From Octopus sinensis (lineage: Eukaryota): 36,049 nt of DNA. Both the position numbers and the translations under genes were made by a program. The DNA is taken from contig NW_021826239.1 in the NCBI RefSeq assembly GCF_006345805.1, positions 1 through 36,049 of the forward strand. The letters are read 5' to 3'. This document shows positions 3,239-36,049 of the stretch, piece after piece. The notes below the pieces were generated by a model. That model had not been told where the DNA came from and searched no databases. It saw nothing but the letters and a program-made list of their open reading frames with translations. The number at the start of each line of letters is the position of its first letter. Positions within the stretch are counted from its first letter, which is position 1.

Positions 3239-4391
3239 AGCCAACAGTATTAAATTTGAAGTTATCAAGCAGTAAGATCTCAAATGTAAATATTGTTCAA
3301 TATAATATTATGAGTAGCAGCTCTAATTTAGCTTCCTTTATAATAATTAACAGCAACTATTTAAAATGAAATATACTATAGATTGCACCAATCACTGAAA
3401 ACCCTTAATCCACTATATCAAATGCTTTAGATAAGTTCAGTTAGAAAAAAACATATAGAGAATCATGGAGGGGTTAGTCAATATCATCATATAATCTGCT
3501 GAAAATTTTCTCATATCTATATCCACTCTTGGAAATTTCAAGTTATTGAATGAAAGGTGACCACTGAAACAATGTAGCACAACTTTCTCATTTAGTGTCA
3601 TCATGATCCATTGTTTCTAACAAAAGTAATTATTCTTGGAAGACTGAAATTTGGAAAAGTTTCCATATATTATTTTTGATCTTTTCAGTTATTGGTAAGG
3701 CCATTCTAGAAACAAATTTTTTCGAAGAATTAAAAAAAAATTTAATTTGAATAGTGAATAGTGAAATATATCTTCTCAAAATGCATGTTAGCATGCAAGG
3801 ATTAGCTACTCAAGATAAAAAAAAGAAATTTTATCAAGGCTTTTTTTCCCCTCCGAGACACATGATTAAATTTTTCTCTTTGTCCTGTTTATTGCACCTC
3901 AACAAACTTGCAATATATGGACTTGTATTAGCTGAGTCTAACATCTTTTATAAATGGACATCCTATTTCATTCTTAAATCATGTCAAAATTCCCAAATTA
4001 TTGATATTAATACAACTATAAAAATAATACCAGCCAAATAATAAAATTTGATTATCATAAAACAACAACAACAATACACTCTCCAAACAAGTTCCAAGCG
4101 ATTTCATACAGAAATGTGTAAATATGTATGTGTCCATATAAGCGTACATGCCTCATAATATAAAATAAAAAAATATATTCACTCTGACTGCTTCACTTCC
4201 AAGAGCCTAAGCTAACAGAACTGCATCCATTCTTATCAACATTTCTAACTAACTATTAACCCATACCTGTTCAAATGAGCAACAGTTTTGTCCAGTCACA
4301 TCTATTTCTCAGTATATGAGGATTTAACAGTAAAAAACACAATCAATAAATTATGAATTTAATTTCTATTTTTATTATTTTTTTTACATAC

Positions 4392-4590
4392 CAGGAGGCT
4401 TTTTATGCCATGGATTAGGAGGAATGTTAGGTGAACAGGCAGCATTTACTTCAGGTTTGCTAGATTCATTGATTTGGTTAAATCTTTTGCCTCGGCTCCC
4501 TCCATTTTCTTGTATATTTGCAGGTGGATTACTTGAAGCTCGCCCTCTCCCTCGACCATGTCCTTTCAAGAAAGCTGGCTTTTTATCCAT
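4392..4590 (-). CDS. NFXL1: NFXL1 (NF-X1-type zinc finger protein) first coding exon
   Basis: ATG at 4590 lies 10 nt after an acceptor (ctttctttag|, exon starts at 4600). Encodes MDKKPAFLKGHGRGRGRASS...KKPP with the RG-rich N-terminus typical of NFXL1. Donor G|gtatgt at 4392/4391, phase 1, matches the next exon. Confidence 0.85.
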
Positions 4591-7031: not shown

Positions 7032-9425
7032 GACCAAAGACTGGAGGTGTTTCGTGTTGCAAGACAGTGTGTGAGAGAGAATTGTGATGTGGTAGGAGAG
7101 AAATGTGTTCGCATGGAAGATGGTTCACTTGCGCTAAATGAGGATGCAAAGAGAGAGGTTTGGAGACGCCACTATGAAAGGTTGCTGAATAAAGAAAATG
7201 AATGGGATAAAGAGAGTCTGCTGAATGTCGACCCAACAGAGGGACCAGCTATCCGAGTTGACAGTTCCTTGGTAGTTAAGGCGATTAGAAGCATGAAGAC
7301 AGAGAAAGCACCAGGCCCATCAGGAATCACTGCAGAGATGCTCAAAATATCTGGTAGTGTCGCCTATAGCCTAGTCACCCGTATAGTTAATCAGGTGATA
7401 CACGAAGGAGTCATACCCAATGACTGGTGTAGCAGCATAATAGTCAACTGCTACAAAGGTAAAGGTGATGCCCTAGATACAAATAATTACAGAGGTATCA
7501 AGCTGTTGGATCAGGTAATGAAGGTTACGGAGAGGGTCATAGCCCAACTAATTAGAGAGAGAGTTAGTTTAGATGAGATGCAGTTTGGGTTTGTGCCAGG
7601 GAAAAGTACCACTGATGCTATATTCCTGGTAAGGCAGCTGCAGAAGAAATACCTAGCCAAAGATAAGCCCCTGTACCTGGCTTTTGTTGACATGGAGAAA
7701 GCCTTTGACAGGGCCCCCTGATCCCTTATCTGGTGGTCAATGGGGAAACTAGGGATAGATGAATGGTTAGTGAGAGCTGTGCGAGCCATGTACAGGGACG
7801 CTGCTAGTAAGGTGAGGGTTGGCAACGAGTACAGTGAAGAATTCCGGGTAGAGGTAGGGGTCCACCAAGGCTCAGTCCTCAGCCCCCCTATTTATCATAG
7901 TCCTCCAGGCAATAACAGAGGAATTCAAGACAGGATGCCCCTGGGAGCTCCTCTATGCTGATGACCTTGCTCTAATTGCTGAGTCACTATCAGAACTGGA
8001 GGAGAAGTTTCAGGTGTGGAAGCAAGGATTAGAATCGAAGGGCCTTAGAGTCAATCTAGCTAAAACCAAAGTCCTAATAAGTAGGAAGGTAGACAAATCA
8101 CAAACGCCTTCAGGTAGATGGCCCTGCTCGATCTGTAGAAAAGGTGTAGGTAGAAACTCTATAAGATGCACCAAGTGTAAGCTATGGACACATAAGAGGT
8201 GCAGCAATGTCAAAGGAAGGCTAACTAGGAAGATAGTTTTTGTATGTGGCAGATGCTCAGGAGCAATAAACACTGAAAATGCTCTGAGACCAACTTCTGC
8301 CACATTCCAGGGAGAAAAAACTAGAAATAGTTGATAGCTTCCGTTACCTAGGTGACCAAGTCAGTAGCAGGGGTGGGTGTGCTGAAAGTGTAACTGCTAG
8401 AGTAAGAATAGCTTGGGCAAAGTTCAGAGAGCTCTTACCTCTGCTGGTGACAAAAGGCCTCTCGCTCAGAGTAAAAGGCAGACTGTATGACGCGTGTGTA
8501 CGAACAGCCATGCTACATGGCAGTGAAACATGGGCCGTGACTGCTGAGGATATGCGTAAGCTCGCAAGAAATGAAGCCAGTATGCTCCGATGGATGTGTA
8601 ATGTCAGTGTTCATACTCGACAGAGTGTAAGTACCTTGAGAGAAAAGTTGGACCTAAGAAGCATCAGTTGTGGTGTGCAAGAGAGACGTTTGCGCTGGTA
8701 TGGTCATGTGGCGAGAATGGATGAAGATAGTTGTGTGAAAAAGTGCCACACCCTAGCAGTTGAGGGAACCTGTGGAAGAGGTAGACCCAGGAAAACCTGG
8801 GACGAGGTGGTGAAGCACGACCTTCGAACTTTAGGTCTCACTGAGAAAATGACTAGAGACCGAGACCTTTGGAAGTATGCCGTACGTGAGAAGACCCGGC
8901 AGGACAAATGAGACCATAACCCGTGGCCTCTACACGGGATGTAGCCAGTCCACTTATGCATACCGTTCCTTCTTGGGACACAAAACTCTACTTGTGAAGA
9001 CCTGTTGAGGCAAGTGAGAATCGAAATCGATCAACATCAATGGAAATTGCAGCTGTGATACCAGTGCCAGTGGCACGTAAGAGAACCATCCGAACGTGGC
9101 CGTTGCCAGCGCCGCCCCGACTGGCCTCGTGCTGGTGGCACGTAAAAAGCACCATCTGTCTGTGGCCGTTGCCAGCCTCACTGGCCCCCATGCCGGTGGC
9201 ACGTAAAAGCACCATCCGATCGTGGCCGTTTGCCAGACTCGTCTGGCATGTAAAAAGCACCCACTACACTCACGGAGTGGTTGGCGTTAGGAAGGGCATC
9301 CAGCCGTAGAAACATTGCCAGATCAGACTGGGCCTGGTGCAGCCTTCTGGCTTCCCAGACCCCAGTTGAACTGTCCAACCCATGCTAGCATGGAAAGCGG
9401 ACACTAAACGATGATGATGATGATG
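7032..9425 (+). mobile_element. RTE-clade LINE, 5'-truncated, with RT ORF2 disrupted by a few lesions, 3'UTR and (GAT)n tail
   Basis: RT motifs KAPGPSG, NYRGIKLL, QFGF, FVDMEKAFDR, GVHQGSVLSP, LYADD and RRLRWYGHV...GRPRKTW. Stop at 7719-7721; frameshifts near 7885 and 8320. ORF ends at 8911. 3'UTR has internal tandem repeats and a gatgatgat tail. Possible aaaaga target-site duplication. Lies antisense to NFXL1, probably in its first intron. Confidence 0.95.
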
Positions 9426-24719: not shown

Positions 24720-27410
24720 AGAAGCAGGCCAACCCAGAAAAGAAGGATTTGGAAGCTAAAGAACCCTTCACATGGTCAGAGATTCAGGAACATCCTCATC
24801 AAGAAATTTGAGAGGGAGGAGGAGCTACAGACACTGGAAATAGAAGGTCGCTGGAAATTCCTATGGGACAGCTTGCTGAATGCCACAGACCAAGTCTGTG
24901 GATGGTGCAAAGTCCCTTCCAGACCTAGAGTTACATGGTGGTGGAATAGTACAGTAGACAAAGCCATTAGACCAAAGAAACAGGCCTGGAAAGCCTGGAA
25001 GGATGGGGGTAGCAGGACACTGTGCCAGGTAGCCAAAAGAGAAGCTGGGCGGCAGGTATACATAGCCAAAGGCAATGCGGAAAAGAAGAAGTTTGCCAAT
25101 GTCCAGCGACATGAGGACCAAAGAACTGAGGTATTTCGGATTGCTAGACAGTGTGTGAGAGAAAATTGTGATGTCACAGGAGAGAAATGTGGCCGCATGG
25201 ATGATGGTGCACTTGCTTTTAATGTTTATGAAAAGAAAGAGGCTTGGAGAAGCCATTATGAAAGACTGCTGAATGTGGAGAATGAATGGGAGGAGGAGAG
25301 CCTGCCAAACGTTGACCCTGTAGAGGGACCAGCTATCCATATAGACAGCTCTTTAGTAGATAAAGCAATTAAGAGTATGTAGCCAGGAAAAGCCCCCCCC
25401 CCATCAGAAATCACTGCTGAGATGCTTAAAACATCTGGTGGTGTGGGCTATGGCTCAGTCACCTGCATTGTAAACCAGGTAGTTCTTAATGGAGTCATAC
25501 CCAATGACTGGCGTAGCAGCACCATAGTCAACTGCTACAAGGGTAAAGGTGATGCTCTAGATAGAAATAACTACAGGGGTATCAAACTGCTGGATCAGGT
25601 GATGAAGGCCATGGAGAGGGTCATAGCCCATCTCATTTGGGAGTTTGCTTATGTGAGATGCAGTTCGGTTTTGTGCCGGGTAGAAGCACCACTGATGCCA
25701 TATTCCTGGTTTGACAACTGCAGGAGAAATACCTAGTAGACTTGGAGAAAGCCTTTGACAGGGTCCCCCAATCCCTTACCTGGTGGGCGATGCGGAAACT
25801 GGAGATTGATGAGTGGTTAATAAGCGCTGTACAGGCCCTATACAGAGAGGCTGTTAGTAAGGTTAGGATTGGCAATGAATATAGTGAAGAATTCCGGGTA
25901 GAAGTAGGGGTCCACCAAGGTTCAGCACTCAGTCCCCTTTTATTCATCATTGTCCTCCTGGAAATAAGAGGAATTCAAGATGAGTTGCCCCTGGGAGCTC
26001 CTCTATGCTGATGACCTGGCCCTCATTGCAGAATCACTATCAGAACTAGAAAAGAAATTTCGGGTGTGGAAGCTAGATTTAGAATCAAAAGGTCTTAGAG
26101 TCAATGTAACAAAGACCAGAGTTATAGTAAGTAGGAAGGCGAACTCATCACACACATCCTCAGGTCGGGGGCCCTGCTCAATCTGTAGAAAAGGTATAGA
26201 TAGAAACTCCATAAGATGTACCCAGTGTAAGCTATGGATATGTAAGTGGTGAGGCAACATCAAAGGAAAACTAACCAGGAAGATAGATTTCGTGTGCAGC
26301 AGATGCACAGGGGCAATAGACACAATTGATACTCAGAAAACAGATACCATCACACTCCAGGGGGAGAAACTAGAAGTAGTTGATAGTTTCCGCTACCTAG
26401 GTAACCAAGTTAGTAGTGGAGGTGGATGCTCAGAGAGTGTCACCACTAGATTAAGAATAGCCTGGGCAAAGTTTAGAAAACTCCTACCCCTACTGGTGAC
26501 AAAGAGTCTCTCAGAGTGAAAGGTAGATTGTATGACACATGTGCGAACTGCCATGCTTTACGGCAGTGAAAAATGGGCTGTGACTGCGGAGGACATGCGT
26601 AGGCTTGAAAGAAATGAAGCTAGCATGATCCGCTGCATGTGTAATGTCAGTGTGCACACATGACAGAGTGGAAGCGCCTTGAGAGAAATGTTGGACATAA
26701 GCATCAGATGTGGCGTGCAGGAAAGACGTTTGCGCTGGTATGGTCATGTACTAAGGATGGATGAGAAGAGATGTGTGAAGAAGTGCCACTCCCAAACAGT
26801 TGGGGTAGAGGTAGACCCAGGAAGACATGGGATGAGGTGGTCAAGCATGACCTTCGAACGTTGGGCTTCACAGAAGCAATGACGAAAGAGATATGCTGTG
26901 ACTGCGAAGACCCGACAAATAATGTGAGTTCATGGCTGTTTCCTGTACCAGCTTCACATAGCAGCCCCACACATCCAAAGTACATTGGTTGACAGGACAG
27001 CCTGCTTTACTTGAAGAGACCTATTGAGTCAAGTACATCAACATCAACATGAAAATGAAAATGAAATGGAAATTGTAGTTGTGATACCCGTGCCAGTGGC
27101 ATGTAAAAAACCATCATCCAAACATGGTTTTTTACATGCCAGCGCTGCCTTGACTGGCTTCTGTGCTGGTGGCACGTAAAAAGCACCAACTGATTGCGGC
27201 CGTTTCCAGCCTCCCCGGCATCTGTGCCGGTGGTATGTAAAAAGCATCCACTACACTCACGGAGTGGTTGGCGTTAGGAAGGGCATCCAGCTGTAGAAAC
27301 ACTGCCAGATCAGAATGGAGCCTGGTGCAGCATCCTGGTTTCCTTGACTCCGGTCAAACCGTCCAACCCATGCTAGGATGGAAAACAGATGTTAAACGAT
27401 GATAATGATA
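24720..27410 (+). mobile_element. Second, more decayed RTE LINE related to 7032-9425
   Basis: Homologous ORF pieces (TWWWN, NYRGIKLL, KAFDRVP, GVHQGS, LYADD, RRLRWYGHV) with many frameshifts and stops. Same type of 3'UTR, ending gttaaacgatgataatgat. Confidence 0.93.
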
Positions 27411-32619: not shown

Positions 32620-33993
32620 ACGGGCAAAAGCCCCCCCCCTCCTCATCCCGTCCAATGGACGGTGCTGAGTTGTCAAACATTTAAGCCAAATTTGCTTATA
32701 AAAATAGAAGTTCTAGTCACACTAGAACAACACATAAGTGTACAACTCATGGGAGACTTCAATCTACCCAATGTCAGATGGCCCGAGGGCCTTTCTCTCC
32801 CAGGAATGACATGATGTGAACGAGGACAGGCGAGGTCCCTCCTGAACCTCATCAACACCCTGTACATGGAGCAAGTAATACTCCAACCAACCAGGGCAGG
32901 TAACACTGGATCTCTGCTTCACAAATAATATGGATCTCATCCATAATGTGAAAGTGACACCAACACTACTCTCGGATCACAACATGGTAGAGCTGACCAT
33001 GTACGGGCCAAAGGAAAGCATGGACATGCAGCCTACAAGAATCCCTCAGAATCTTTCCAGCTTGAACTTCAATAAGGCAAATGTGTCCCAGAGAGAAAGG
33101 CCACTGTACACAAGAACAAAATCCCCAGAGAGAGAGGAAAATTCTAATGAGACGGCGTACAAAAATTTCAAATCGCCTAAACAAACAAATTGAAAGCAGT
33201 GAAAAGTCCCGCCTGAAAATGAAACTGTTGGAAATTGAAAAATGTCTGCAACTCTCCCATGAAAAGGAAAGAGCAGACAAAGAAGCCTGGGCTATAGACA
33301 ACATAAAATCTAAACCCAGAGCTTTCTACAGGTATGCCAAAGAAACAGCTACGGTGCACTGTAGGATAGGGCCACTCCTTGAAAAGGGGTGGCTCACTCA
33401 CAGGAAATCCAATGAGCTTGGGGCGATCCAACGAGGCTACACGGGAAGATAGCCTCTGTGCAGCATGTAGGCTGCTGGGAGGGACTCAGGAGATTAGAAC
33501 TCTATTCCTTGGAGCGTGGGCGAGAAAGATATGCCAGAATATATGTCTGGAGGGTCCTGAGGGACTTGTCCCAGGCTTTGGCATCGAGAGTCACACAAAT
33601 GCCAGAACCGGACGCCACTGCGTGGTACCAAGGACTCCAAATTTGCCATCAAGATGTAGGACAAGATACTGTGATAGCCTGGGCTTCAGAGGCCCACAGC
33701 TCTTCAATATCCTCCCGAAGAACCTGAGGGACCTGCATGGTGTAGATGCGGATGTCTTTAAAGTAGGACTGGATCTCTTCCTGTCAGGTGTCCCGGATGA
33801 ACCAACTTCACTGCATGTGCGGGCAATTGCAGACTGAGGTTGCTCAGTGATGCATCAGCTGCATCGAACTCTCTCATGCACCAAGGGCAGTTGCTAAAAA
33901 GCATTCTTATGGTAAAATCATTGTAGCAAACCAAATGGCGGTGCCCCAGCATGCCACAGCTCATGAGCTGAAACTGGAAATCAAATCACAATC
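32620..33993 (+). mobile_element. CR1/L2-group LINE copy with internal deletions (endonuclease remnant, linker, 3' end; RT removed)
   Basis: APE endonuclease motifs LMGDFNLP, QPTRAGN(T)LDL and LSDHNMV. 33083-33415 matches 34132-34460, then jumps to match 35723 onward. Ends aaatcaaatcacaatca. Confidence 0.88.
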
Positions 33994-34047: not shown

Positions 34048-36049
34048 CACACTGGCCTGAATGTCTCTGCTCGCGCCAGACATCGACGTGAAACTTCAAC
34101 AATTCATGTCGTAATGCAATACATATCTACAATGTTTCCCAAGAGAAAGCCACTGTACACAACAACAAAATCCCCAGAGAGAGGAAAATTTTAATGAGAT
34201 GCATACAAAAATTTCAAATCGCACTAAACAAACAAATTGAAAGCAGTGAAAGTCCCCGCCTGAAAATAAAACTGTTGGAAATTGAAAAATGTCTGCAACT
34301 CTCTCATGGAAAGGAAAAAGCAGACAAAGAAGCCTGGGCTATAGACAACATAAAATCTAACCCCAGAGCTTTCTACAGGTATGCCAAGAAACAGCTACGG
34401 TGCACTGTAGGATAGAGCCCACTCCTTGAAAGGATGGCTCACTCACAGGAAATCCGATGAGGGTAGTGAAATACTAAATGAGCAATTCAAGAGTGTTTTC
34501 ACCCCACCCCTTGGGCATTTCCAAATCAGCAATCCAACTGACTTCTTCACCACTGCAAATATGGGGTCAGAGCGGCGATGATTGATTACATCAATATAAA
34601 GGAAAGACGATGTAATAAAGGCTATAGCTGAGATGAAAACAAACTCAGCTATTGGCCCCGATGGATTCCTGGCAATCCTTCTAAAAGTAAGTTAGAGAGT
34701 CCTAGCAAGACCACTGCAGTCTCTCTTTCAGAGCTTCCTTGCAACTGGCAAACTTCCAGAAAACTGAAGGAAGGTAAAATATGCCCTATTCATAAAGGAG
34801 GTAGCAGAGCGGAGGCCAAGAACTACAGACCTATCTCTCTGACCTCACACATCAGCAAGGTCATGAACGAATAGTCAGTAGGAAACTAATCACCTTCCTT
34901 GAAGAAAATGACTTGCTGCCTGACACCCAACATGGTTTCGACCAGGAAGAAGCTGCTTAACTCAGCTCCTACAACACTATGACTGGGTGCTGAAACGACT
35001 GCTCAACCACTCAAATGTGGAAGTCATATATCTTGACTTTGCAAAGGCCTTCGATAAAGTCGATCATGGAATGATATGTCACAAACTGCGTGATCTCAGC
35101 ATAGTTGGAAAACTGGGAGAATGGCTTCATGACTTTCTGAAAGATAGAAGTCAGGTGGTAGTAGCCAATGGGGCCACTTCCATTAACATGCAAATAGTGA
35201 GCGGTGTTCCGCAGGGCACTGTTTTGGGACCACTACTGTTCATAACGGCCCTCTCAGACATGCCCTCAGCCACGCAGAGAGCCACGATCACAAGTTATGC
35301 AGATGATACAAAAGTTTCACAGGCAATACAGAACCCTGAGGACACTAAACGCCTGCAATGTGAACTGGACAAAATATACAAGTGGGCTGAAAAGAATAGC
35401 ATGCAGTTCAATGCTGAAAAGTTTCAAGCTTTATACTATCAGCATGCAAAACTGAATGCAATACCCAATGAATACACTGGACCCGGAGGAATTGCAATCC
35501 CAGAGGCACAATCAGTGCGTGACCTGGGTATTTACCTGAGTGGTGACGCAACCTTTCGTGTACATGTTGCTAAATTGGCAATGAAATGTAGACGACTGGC
35601 CGGGTGGACTTTCAGAACCTTTAGAACAAGAAACCATGATGGTCCTCTGGAGGACACTTGTCCTAAGCCACTTTGACTATTGCTCTCAGCTATGGTCACC
35701 ATCCAGTGTCAAGCTGATCACAGAACTTGAGGCGATCCAACGTAGCTACACGAAGAAGATAGCCTCTATGCAGAAATTAAGCTACTGGGAAAGACTCAAG
35801 AGATTAAAACTCTTGGAGCGTAGGCGAGAAAGATATGCCATAATATACATCTGGAAGATCCTGGAGGGACTTGTCCCAAACTTTGGCATCGGGAGTTACA
35901 CAAATGCCAGAACTGGGCGCCACTGCATGGTGCCTAGGACTCCAAATTTGCCATCAAGATGTAGGACAAGATACTGTGATAGCCTAGGCTTCCGAGGCCC
36001 ACAGCTCTTCAATATCCTCCGAGAATCTAAAGACCTGCATGGGGTGGGA
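34046..36049 (+). mobile_element. CR1/L2-group LINE, 5'-truncated, frameshifted RT; runs off the window end
   Basis: Motifs NYRPISLTSH, YLDFAKAFDKVDH, SGVPQGTVLGPLLF, YADDTK, FNAEK, RDLG and LEAIQR...SYWERLK...LERRRER. Confidence 0.93.

What the first reader, a model, noticed from the sequence alone, without database searches (positions are those of the whole stretch)
33414..33576. Genomic LINE copy with a dense one-directional A-to-G cluster: probable ADAR-hyperedited RNA written back into DNA
Seen: aligning this stretch by eye to the sibling copy at 35723-35881 gives about 16-17 A(sibling)>G(this copy) differences, no G>A, and about 6 other substitutions (e.g. aagctactgggaaagactcaagagattaaaactc > aggctgctgggagggactcaggagattagaactc; tggaagatc > tggagggtc; cccaaac > cccaggc). 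The sibling keeps the LINE-like peptide (ELEAIQRSYTKK, SYWERLKRLK, LERRRER) while this copy breaks it (ELGAIQRG, GCWEGLRRLE, LERGRER), so G is the derived state. Most changed As have a 5' A/U/C neighbour, and the bias fades after about 33580. Established: ADAR A-to-I editing reads as A>G on the RNA strand, is clustered, disfavours 5' G and is very extensive in coleoid cephalopods. Inference: an edited LINE transcript was reverse-transcribed and integrated, a heritable fossil of RNA editing and possibly of ADAR acting against retrotransposons.
Basis: partly seen in the sequence, partly recalled or inferred. Interest (0 to 1): 0.85.

Follow-up and report, generated by a model that had tools for sequence, protein, structure and literature searches.

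The report
RNA-edited LINE copies written into DNA
This retrotransposon copy, and six more of its family elsewhere in the same genome (likely an octopus), carry dense one-way bursts of A-to-G changes, most likely scars of the RNA-editing enzyme ADAR that became heritable when edited RNA was copied back into DNA.

Summary
Confirmed and extended. Against its nearest genomic relative the copy has 17 A>G among 55 As in 33421-33575 and only 3 other substitutions in 393 columns. Contigs of a probable DNA run carry the Gs at single-copy depth. Six more copies of this LINE family have sense-strand A>G tracts (21-220 each). Pooled: 623 A>G against 78 other changes; changed fraction by 5' neighbour T 44%, A 40%, C 22%, G 12%; 3' G enriched. 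That is the ADAR signature. No cluster of any other type appeared in 238 alignments, though the sample was enriched for A>G; matched motif tests gave 3 A>G loci to 0 T>C, so strand bias is suggestive only. Best reading: ADAR-hyperedited LINE RNA was reverse-transcribed and inserted, in at least about 0.2% of copies. The RNA partner, the enzyme and any defence role are inferred. Known for retroviral proviruses; my ten searches found no report for LINE insertions. This scan noted similar cases in two other genomes.

The parts
32695..33081 (+). Copy A, 5' piece (end of the endonuclease region); 5'-truncated; no A>G excess
   Evidence: 97.4% to intact copy L121:1882-2270; private changes listed
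33078..33416 (+). Copy A, second piece (linker), after a 115-bp internal deletion with 4-nt microhomology; one private A>G at 33389
   Evidence: 97.6% to L121:2385-2720; joint
33414..33416 (+). Joint of a 1.26-kb internal deletion (removes the RT domain), 2-nt microhomology; 33416 reads A in run X1
   Evidence: bridged by a 171-nt contig of X1; no other scored copy spans it
33421..33575 (+). A>G tract: 17 of 55 As changed, 1 T>G, two 1-nt deletions
   Evidence: present in X1 contigs
33576..33811 (+). Copy A, unchanged 3' part of the ORF; no private A>G against the nearest relative
33812..33990 (+). Copy A, ORF end, 3' UTR and tail, with private indels that may be assembly errors
   Evidence: alignment; no long X1 piece listed over it
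34051..36049 (+). Copy B, same family, other subfamily, same orientation, no A>G cluster; runs to the contig end
   Evidence: 93.3% to L121:2306-4313

Best explanation
The A>G tract is most likely the record of ADAR editing: a sense transcript of this LINE likely paired with antisense RNA of the same family over this stretch, was hyper-edited (A to inosine), and was then likely reverse-transcribed and inserted in the germline, fixing inosine as G. Shown: the tract and its direction; its presence in contigs of a probable DNA run; six more such copies; their neighbour signature; sharp or patchy tract limits; no A>G excess in the one flank that could be tested; no near-identical daughter among scored matches for three copies. 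Inferred: the enzyme, the RNA stage, an antisense partner from elsewhere (the element has no long fold-back of its own), germline timing, and supply of intact reverse transcriptase before editing or in trans. The deletion at the tract's 5' edge may be a template jump by the enzyme or a later deletion.
For: 17 A>G, 0 T>C and 3 other changes against the nearest copy. X1 contigs of 171 nt (depth 62) and 93 nt (depth 52) cover 33366-33599 with one difference, at 33416. Seven copies hold 623 A>G against 18 T>C and 78 other changes in all. Changed As by 5' base: T 138 of 311, A 295 of 738, C 118 of 539, G 61 of 516 (G against the rest p = 6e-26; C against G p = 1e-5). 3' G 187 of 510 (p = 2e-5). The three copies found without motifs show the same 5' pattern (all). 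5' G depletion with 3' G excess is the published hyper-editing motif (PMC3197674; PMC4365171). L141 is changed from its 5' truncation to its 3' UTR. The 5' flank of L179 shows 3 A>G and 7 T>C in 336 columns. All 7 clusters among 238 alignments are A>G on the LINE sense strand. The genome has 17 A_deamin (PF02137) matches. Editing of repeat RNA in all tissues is reported for squid (PMC9068888).
Against: Copy A alone has a weak context (G depletion p = 0.10, no changed A after C), and so does L146 (p = 0.26). Strand bias rests on 3 against 0 loci in five matched motif pairs (p about 0.13), and later searches were aimed at A>G. The test on possible RNA runs showed no A>G excess over the DNA run. 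Run X9, the same sample as X1, had no depth at 33418-33471, and X1 may be the assembly's own source. The six other copies were not checked in reads. Choosing the nearest relative while ignoring A>G lowers the count of other changes. Human ADAR1 and ADAR2 did not detectably edit L1 RNA in culture (PMC5224506; PMC8677026).
Confidence: 0.87

Rival explanations
1. ADAR-type deamination acted on a copy already in place: either cDNA of an edited transcript converted part of the resident copy, or ADAR deaminated the DNA strand of an RNA:DNA hybrid.
For: It gives the same neighbour signature. In copy A, L146 and L244 the tracts are internal or patchy. ADAR can edit DNA in DNA:RNA model substrates (PMC12925331). 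Copies A and B share one allele (33394/34439) seen in 0 of 56 other copies, a hint of local conversion.
Against: L141 is changed over its whole inserted length. The L179 flank shows no A>G excess. All seven tracts are on the sense strand, whereas host transcripts would cover either strand. No inverted family copy lies in the window contig or in the 30 kb fetched around each of L146, L232 and L244. The inverted copy 12 kb from L141 is 94% to L121, ordinary for the family.
Confidence: 0.06
2. The LINE reverse transcriptase itself sometimes puts C opposite template A (for example under a skewed nucleotide pool), giving sense-strand A>G without any editing.
For: It explains the sense-strand direction, the confinement to insertions and the singletons. 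A>G hypermutation during retroviral replication is in print (title seen in a reference list).
Against: Rates reach 81 of 141 As in one 400-bp block with 4 other changes. Tracts have sharp limits inside one copy (17 of 55 As, then none to 33811). The neighbour order T, A, C, G with 3' G excess matches ADAR.
Confidence: 0.03
3. An error-prone DNA polymerase (eta or iota type) filled a gap next to the deletion joint and mutated A:T pairs.
For: The tract in copy A begins at a microhomology joint, and 14 of its 17 sites follow A or T with none after C, as for the WA motif of polymerase eta (recalled).
Against: Density of 31% here and above 50% in blocks elsewhere. Tracts up to 2 kb. Pooled C context clearly above G (p = 1e-5). 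No T>C tract found. Internal deletions also occur in 3 of 30 ordinary copies.
Confidence: 0.03
4. The Gs are an assembly or polishing artefact, or belong to an unsampled G-rich subfamily.
For: The window is a small unplaced contig. 33416 differs in X1 and 33812-33960 has unsupported indels. X9 shows no depth over part of the tract.
Against: X1 contigs match all 17 Gs without gaps. The best other genomic match to the tract is 88% (40 scored of 940 candidates). Four of the six other copies lie on chromosome-scale scaffolds. The seven copies share few sites with one another.
Confidence: 0.01

Closest known systems
ADAR-type A>G hypermutation of avian retroviruses (Rous-associated virus U3 LTR, avian leukosis virus inverted repeat; Felder 1994, Hajjar and Linial 1995, as summarised in PMC12925331)
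   Same: Clustered A>G, up to about half of the As, in an element that passes through RNA and reverse transcription (review passage).
   Different: Here it is a non-LTR element, repeated in at least seven independent genomic insertions of an invertebrate, with no fold-back inside the element to explain the duplex.
APOBEC-edited retroelements fixed in vertebrate genomes (PMC4866542; lizard L1, PMC3880073)
   Same: Strand-specific single-type mutation clusters in young retroelement copies, at a similar rarity (85 of 32,872 lizard L1, about 0.26%).
   Different: Those are G>A from cytosine deamination of cDNA; 19 invertebrate genomes served as negative controls for LTR elements. Here it is A>G with an RNA-editing context.
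ADAR hyper-edited repeat RNA (PMC3197674, PMC4365171; squid repeats, PMC9068888)
   Same: Dense A>G clusters in repeats, 5' G depleted, 3' G enriched.
   Different: Those are differences between RNA and DNA and are transient; here the changes are in the genome.
ADAR1 and ADAR2 restriction of human L1 (PMC5224506, PMC8677026)
   Same: ADAR meeting LINE RNA.
   Different: Those studies found restriction without editing and no A-to-I in the L1 RNA sequenced. Here edited RNA seems to have completed retrotransposition.

Membership tests
LINE (endonuclease + reverse transcriptase non-LTR retrotransposon) | ORF with APE-type endonuclease and RT domains | tested here: met
   Intact relative L093/L121: PF14529, PF03372, PF00078; copy A is 97% identical in its 5' pieces
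LINE (endonuclease + reverse transcriptase non-LTR retrotransposon) | 5'-truncated dispersed copies with a simple-repeat 3' tail | tested here: met
   Truncations in 30 copies taken in genome order; tails; 1,647 matches to one motif
LINE clade (CR1, L2, RTE and others) | RT phylogeny against named clades | not tested
   The homolog search gave one named protein among the 120 listed; no tree was built
ADAR hyper-editing signature | Dense cluster of A>G with few other changes | tested here: met
   17 against 3 in copy A; 623 against 78 pooled
ADAR hyper-editing signature | 5' G depleted, 3' G enriched | tested here: met
   Pooled p = 6e-26 and 2e-5; copy A alone not significant, p = 0.10
ADAR hyper-editing signature | A>G on the transcribed strand only | tested here: inconclusive
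   7 A>G clusters, none T>C, but the search was enriched for A>G; matched motif pairs 3 against 0
ADAR hyper-editing signature | Double-stranded RNA substrate | tested here: inconclusive
   No long fold-back in the element and no inverted copy in the window contig; a partner at the source locus or in trans cannot be seen here
ADAR hyper-editing signature | The family's RNA is edited in living tissue | tested here: inconclusive
   Contigs of three small runs on L121 show family variation, with no A>G excess over the DNA run
ADAR hyper-editing signature | Dependence on ADAR enzyme activity | not testable with these tools
   Only the presence of A_deamin domains was shown; ADAR was not told apart from ADAT or ADAD
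APOBEC-edited retroelement | G>A clusters on the sense strand | tested here: not met
   14 G>A against 623 A>G; no G>A cluster of 6 or more

The most novel reading that the evidence does not exclude
In this animal ADAR hyper-edits retrotransposition-competent LINE RNA in the germline often enough to leave a genome-wide, datable fossil record. Edited copies insert once and leave no daughters, so RNA editing works as an invertebrate counterpart of APOBEC hypermutation, and as a real route by which RNA edits become heritable DNA.
Probability: 0.45. Interest if true: 0.88.

Novelty: new variant of a known kind. Interest (0 to 1): 0.72.

Why it matters
Whether ADAR edits mobile-element RNA that goes on to insert is an open question. 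Cell-culture work on human L1 found restriction without editing, and a defence role for editing in cephalopods is proposed but called unexplored. Edited insertions are direct evidence that such RNA is edited in cells that pass DNA on, that the LINE enzyme copies heavily inosine-bearing RNA, and that RNA edits can be inherited. They can be counted, dated and mapped with genome sequence alone. That makes the defence idea testable across species with different editing levels.

Tried and rejected
A second A>G patch at 33726-33795 vanished when copies of the right subfamily were added. A G-rich subfamily or daughter copies: best other matches were 88% for copy A, 88% for L141 and 82% for L179, each 40 scored of 940-2,980 candidates. 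The single T>C motif hit, L187, is an old copy with a balanced spectrum (47 G>A, 43 C>T, 35 A>G, 29 T>C). Two A>G motifs found nothing; the last had no matched T>C control. Laying possible RNA runs on L121 was swamped by family variation. X22 laid no reads, and X2 and X9 had no depth at 33418-33471; these holes prove nothing. Flank tests gave no comparable columns for L141 and L146. The pooled context wrongly included two old diverged alignments and was redone. The deletion joint is not special (3 of 30 ordinary copies have one). The Carmi 2011 genome screen was not held.

Full report
Setting. The window is a whole small contig (G000:C2710) of a 2.72-Gb animal genome. Two copies of one LINE family lie head to tail at its end: copy A (32695-33990) and copy B (34051-36049). 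An intact natural relative, L121 on C4, encodes an endonuclease and a reverse transcriptase (Pfam). One degenerate 22-letter motif matches 1,647 places; 104 of 121 sampled copies had the plain form of it, so about 1,900 copies cover that position. The only named protein among the 120 homologs listed is from Argonauta hians, 57% identical. That points to an octopod host but does not prove it. The LINE clade was not determined.

The observation. The nearest relatives, L034 and L035, differ from copy A at only 3 other sites each over 33417-33811. Against L034 copy A has 17 A>G, all in 33421-33575, among 55 As, with 0 T>C and 3 other substitutions in 393 columns. Fourteen of the sites are nearly absent from the family (G in 0-5 of about 104 aligned copies). 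Three (33481, 33561, 33574) carry G in other subfamilies but A in the six nearest copies. The private A>G rate in 167 ordinary alignments (240 kb) is 0.0042 per A, giving p about 2e-27. A second patch seen at first was subfamily variation.

It is in DNA. Run X1 (DNA by the tool's guess, possibly the assembly's own source) has a 171-nt contig at depth 62 over 33366-33536 and a 93-nt contig at depth 52 over 33507-33599. They have no gaps and one difference, at 33416. Those depths match other single-copy joints in X1 (about 55-60). X9, the same sample, and X2 had no depth at 33418-33471, and X22 laid no reads; the tool warns that holes prove nothing. The indel-rich stretch 33812-33960 has no long X1 piece listed and may be assembly error.

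Anatomy. Copy A is L121:1882-2270, 2385-2720 and 3982-4560 joined at 4-nt and 2-nt microhomologies. The tract begins at the second joint, where 1.26 kb is missing, and ends sharply at 33575. The upstream pieces have 1 private A>G in 719 columns. No other scored copy spans the joint. Internal deletions occur in 3 of 30 ordinary copies, so the joint may be unrelated to the tract.

It recurs. Seven motif searches that demanded G at two family As hit four loci: copy A, L141 (C13), L146 (C7) and L179 (C11499). All four are heavily A>G. Five mirror searches for T>C hit one locus, an old copy with a balanced spectrum. In the five matched pairs the score is 3 loci to 0, which is suggestive only; the last A>G motif had no control. 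DNA searches with L141 and L179 brought three more: L232 (C16), L222 (C13370) and the milder L244 (C3). A scan of 238 distinct alignments for 6 or more private changes of one type in 160 bp found 7 clusters, all A>G on the LINE sense strand; this sample was enriched for A>G. A>G counts against nearest relatives are 17, 71, 30, 114, 150, 220 and 21, with 78 other changes in all. The yardstick was chosen to minimise non-A>G differences, which lowers that last figure; a column-majority yardstick gave the same picture for four copies. The copies have different nearest relatives and share few sites, so they are likely independent events. Four have changes around the motif position, so at least about 0.2% of copies are affected. 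None of the three tested has a near-identical daughter among the 40 scored matches. The six other copies were not checked in reads.

Signature. Pooled over seven copies, As within 40 nt of a changed site were changed in 138 of 311 cases after T, 295 of 738 after A, 118 of 539 after C and 61 of 516 after G. Before G they were changed in 187 of 510 cases, against 24-28% before other bases. The three copies found without motifs show the same 5' order. Depletion of 5' G with excess of 3' G is the published ADAR hyper-editing motif; the order U, A, C, G is recalled, not read here. Copy A and L146 alone do not reach significance. Among codons changed only by A>G in copy A, 12 of 14 change the amino acid.

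Mechanism. Most likely a sense LINE transcript paired with antisense RNA, was hyper-edited by ADAR, and was then copied into the germline genome by the family's reverse transcriptase, which reads inosine as G (established chemistry). L141 is changed from its 5' truncation to its 3' UTR, and the one testable flank of a heavily changed copy is unchanged (L179). Both fit editing before insertion. The element has no long fold-back and the window has no inverted copy; none was seen in 30 kb around L146, L232 or L244. The partner therefore likely came from the source locus or in trans; this is inferred. The genome holds 17 A_deamin matches, not sorted into ADAR, ADAT or ADAD. An attempt to see editing in possible RNA runs was inconclusive. 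Rivals are in-place conversion or hybrid editing (0.06), reverse-transcriptase error (0.03), an error-prone DNA polymerase (0.03) and artefact (0.01). A defence role is not shown: the edited RNA did insert, and most LINE copies leave no daughters anyway.

What is known. I read passages of PMC2873906, PMC4866542, PMC3197674, PMC5974252, PMC8677026, PMC5224506, PMC3880073, PMC12925331, PMC3185545 and PMC4365171, and passages plus the first part of the RNA-editing section of PMC9068888. No supplements were read. A>G hyper-editing in avian retroviral sequences is long known (review passage; originals not read). G>A editing by APOBEC is catalogued in genomic retroelements. Human ADARs restrict L1 without detectable editing. 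Ten full-text searches listed no paper reporting ADAR-type A>G tracts in genomic LINE insertions, judged by titles, abstract starts and the passages above. The library lacks most subscription papers, and the Carmi 2011 screen was not held; it or its supplements may bear on novelty. This scan's own unchecked notes describe an A>G L1 copy and an A>G endogenous retrovirus LTR in two other genomes, so the phenomenon may not be special to cephalopods.

Verdict. It is more than a single oddity because it recurs at least seven times with a clear enzyme-like signature. Interest 0.72.

Noticed in passing
window 33394 and 34439: Copies A and B share an A>T allele seen in 0 of 56 other aligned copies although their 3' parts belong to different subfamilies; possibly local gene conversion or an unsampled sub-lineage.
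   Followed up: partly
window 33812-33960: Copy A's 3' end has two insertions, several 1-nt indels and transversions not shared by relatives, and no long supporting piece in run X1; possibly uncorrected assembly error.
   Followed up: partly
window 33418-33471: Run X9, listed as the same sample as X1, has no depth here while X1 does; filter, library or a polymorphic insertion.
   Followed up: no
window 7032-9421 and 25116-27409: Two copies, 76% identical, of a second retrotransposon family; the first has RT-like reading frames (RTE-like by recall); not scanned for A>G clusters.
   Followed up: no
L181, G000:C2502:263721-264758: A full-length A_deamin (PF02137) match in one uninterrupted stretch with 6 stops, possibly a processed pseudogene of an adenosine deaminase.
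   Followed up: no
L248, L249, L252 (element positions about 1050-1600): The three long changed copies are all most heavily changed in the linker between endonuclease and RT (up to 81 of 141 As per block); may mark a common antisense partner, but two were found with a query from this region.
   Followed up: partly
L143, G000:C13:19937943-19940363: An inverted, ordinary family copy lies about 12 kb from the changed copy L141.
   Followed up: partly
L141 flanks: The TA-repeat flank on the 3' side of the copy is rich in TG variants and that on the 5' side in CA variants; not tested against other microsatellites.
   Followed up: no
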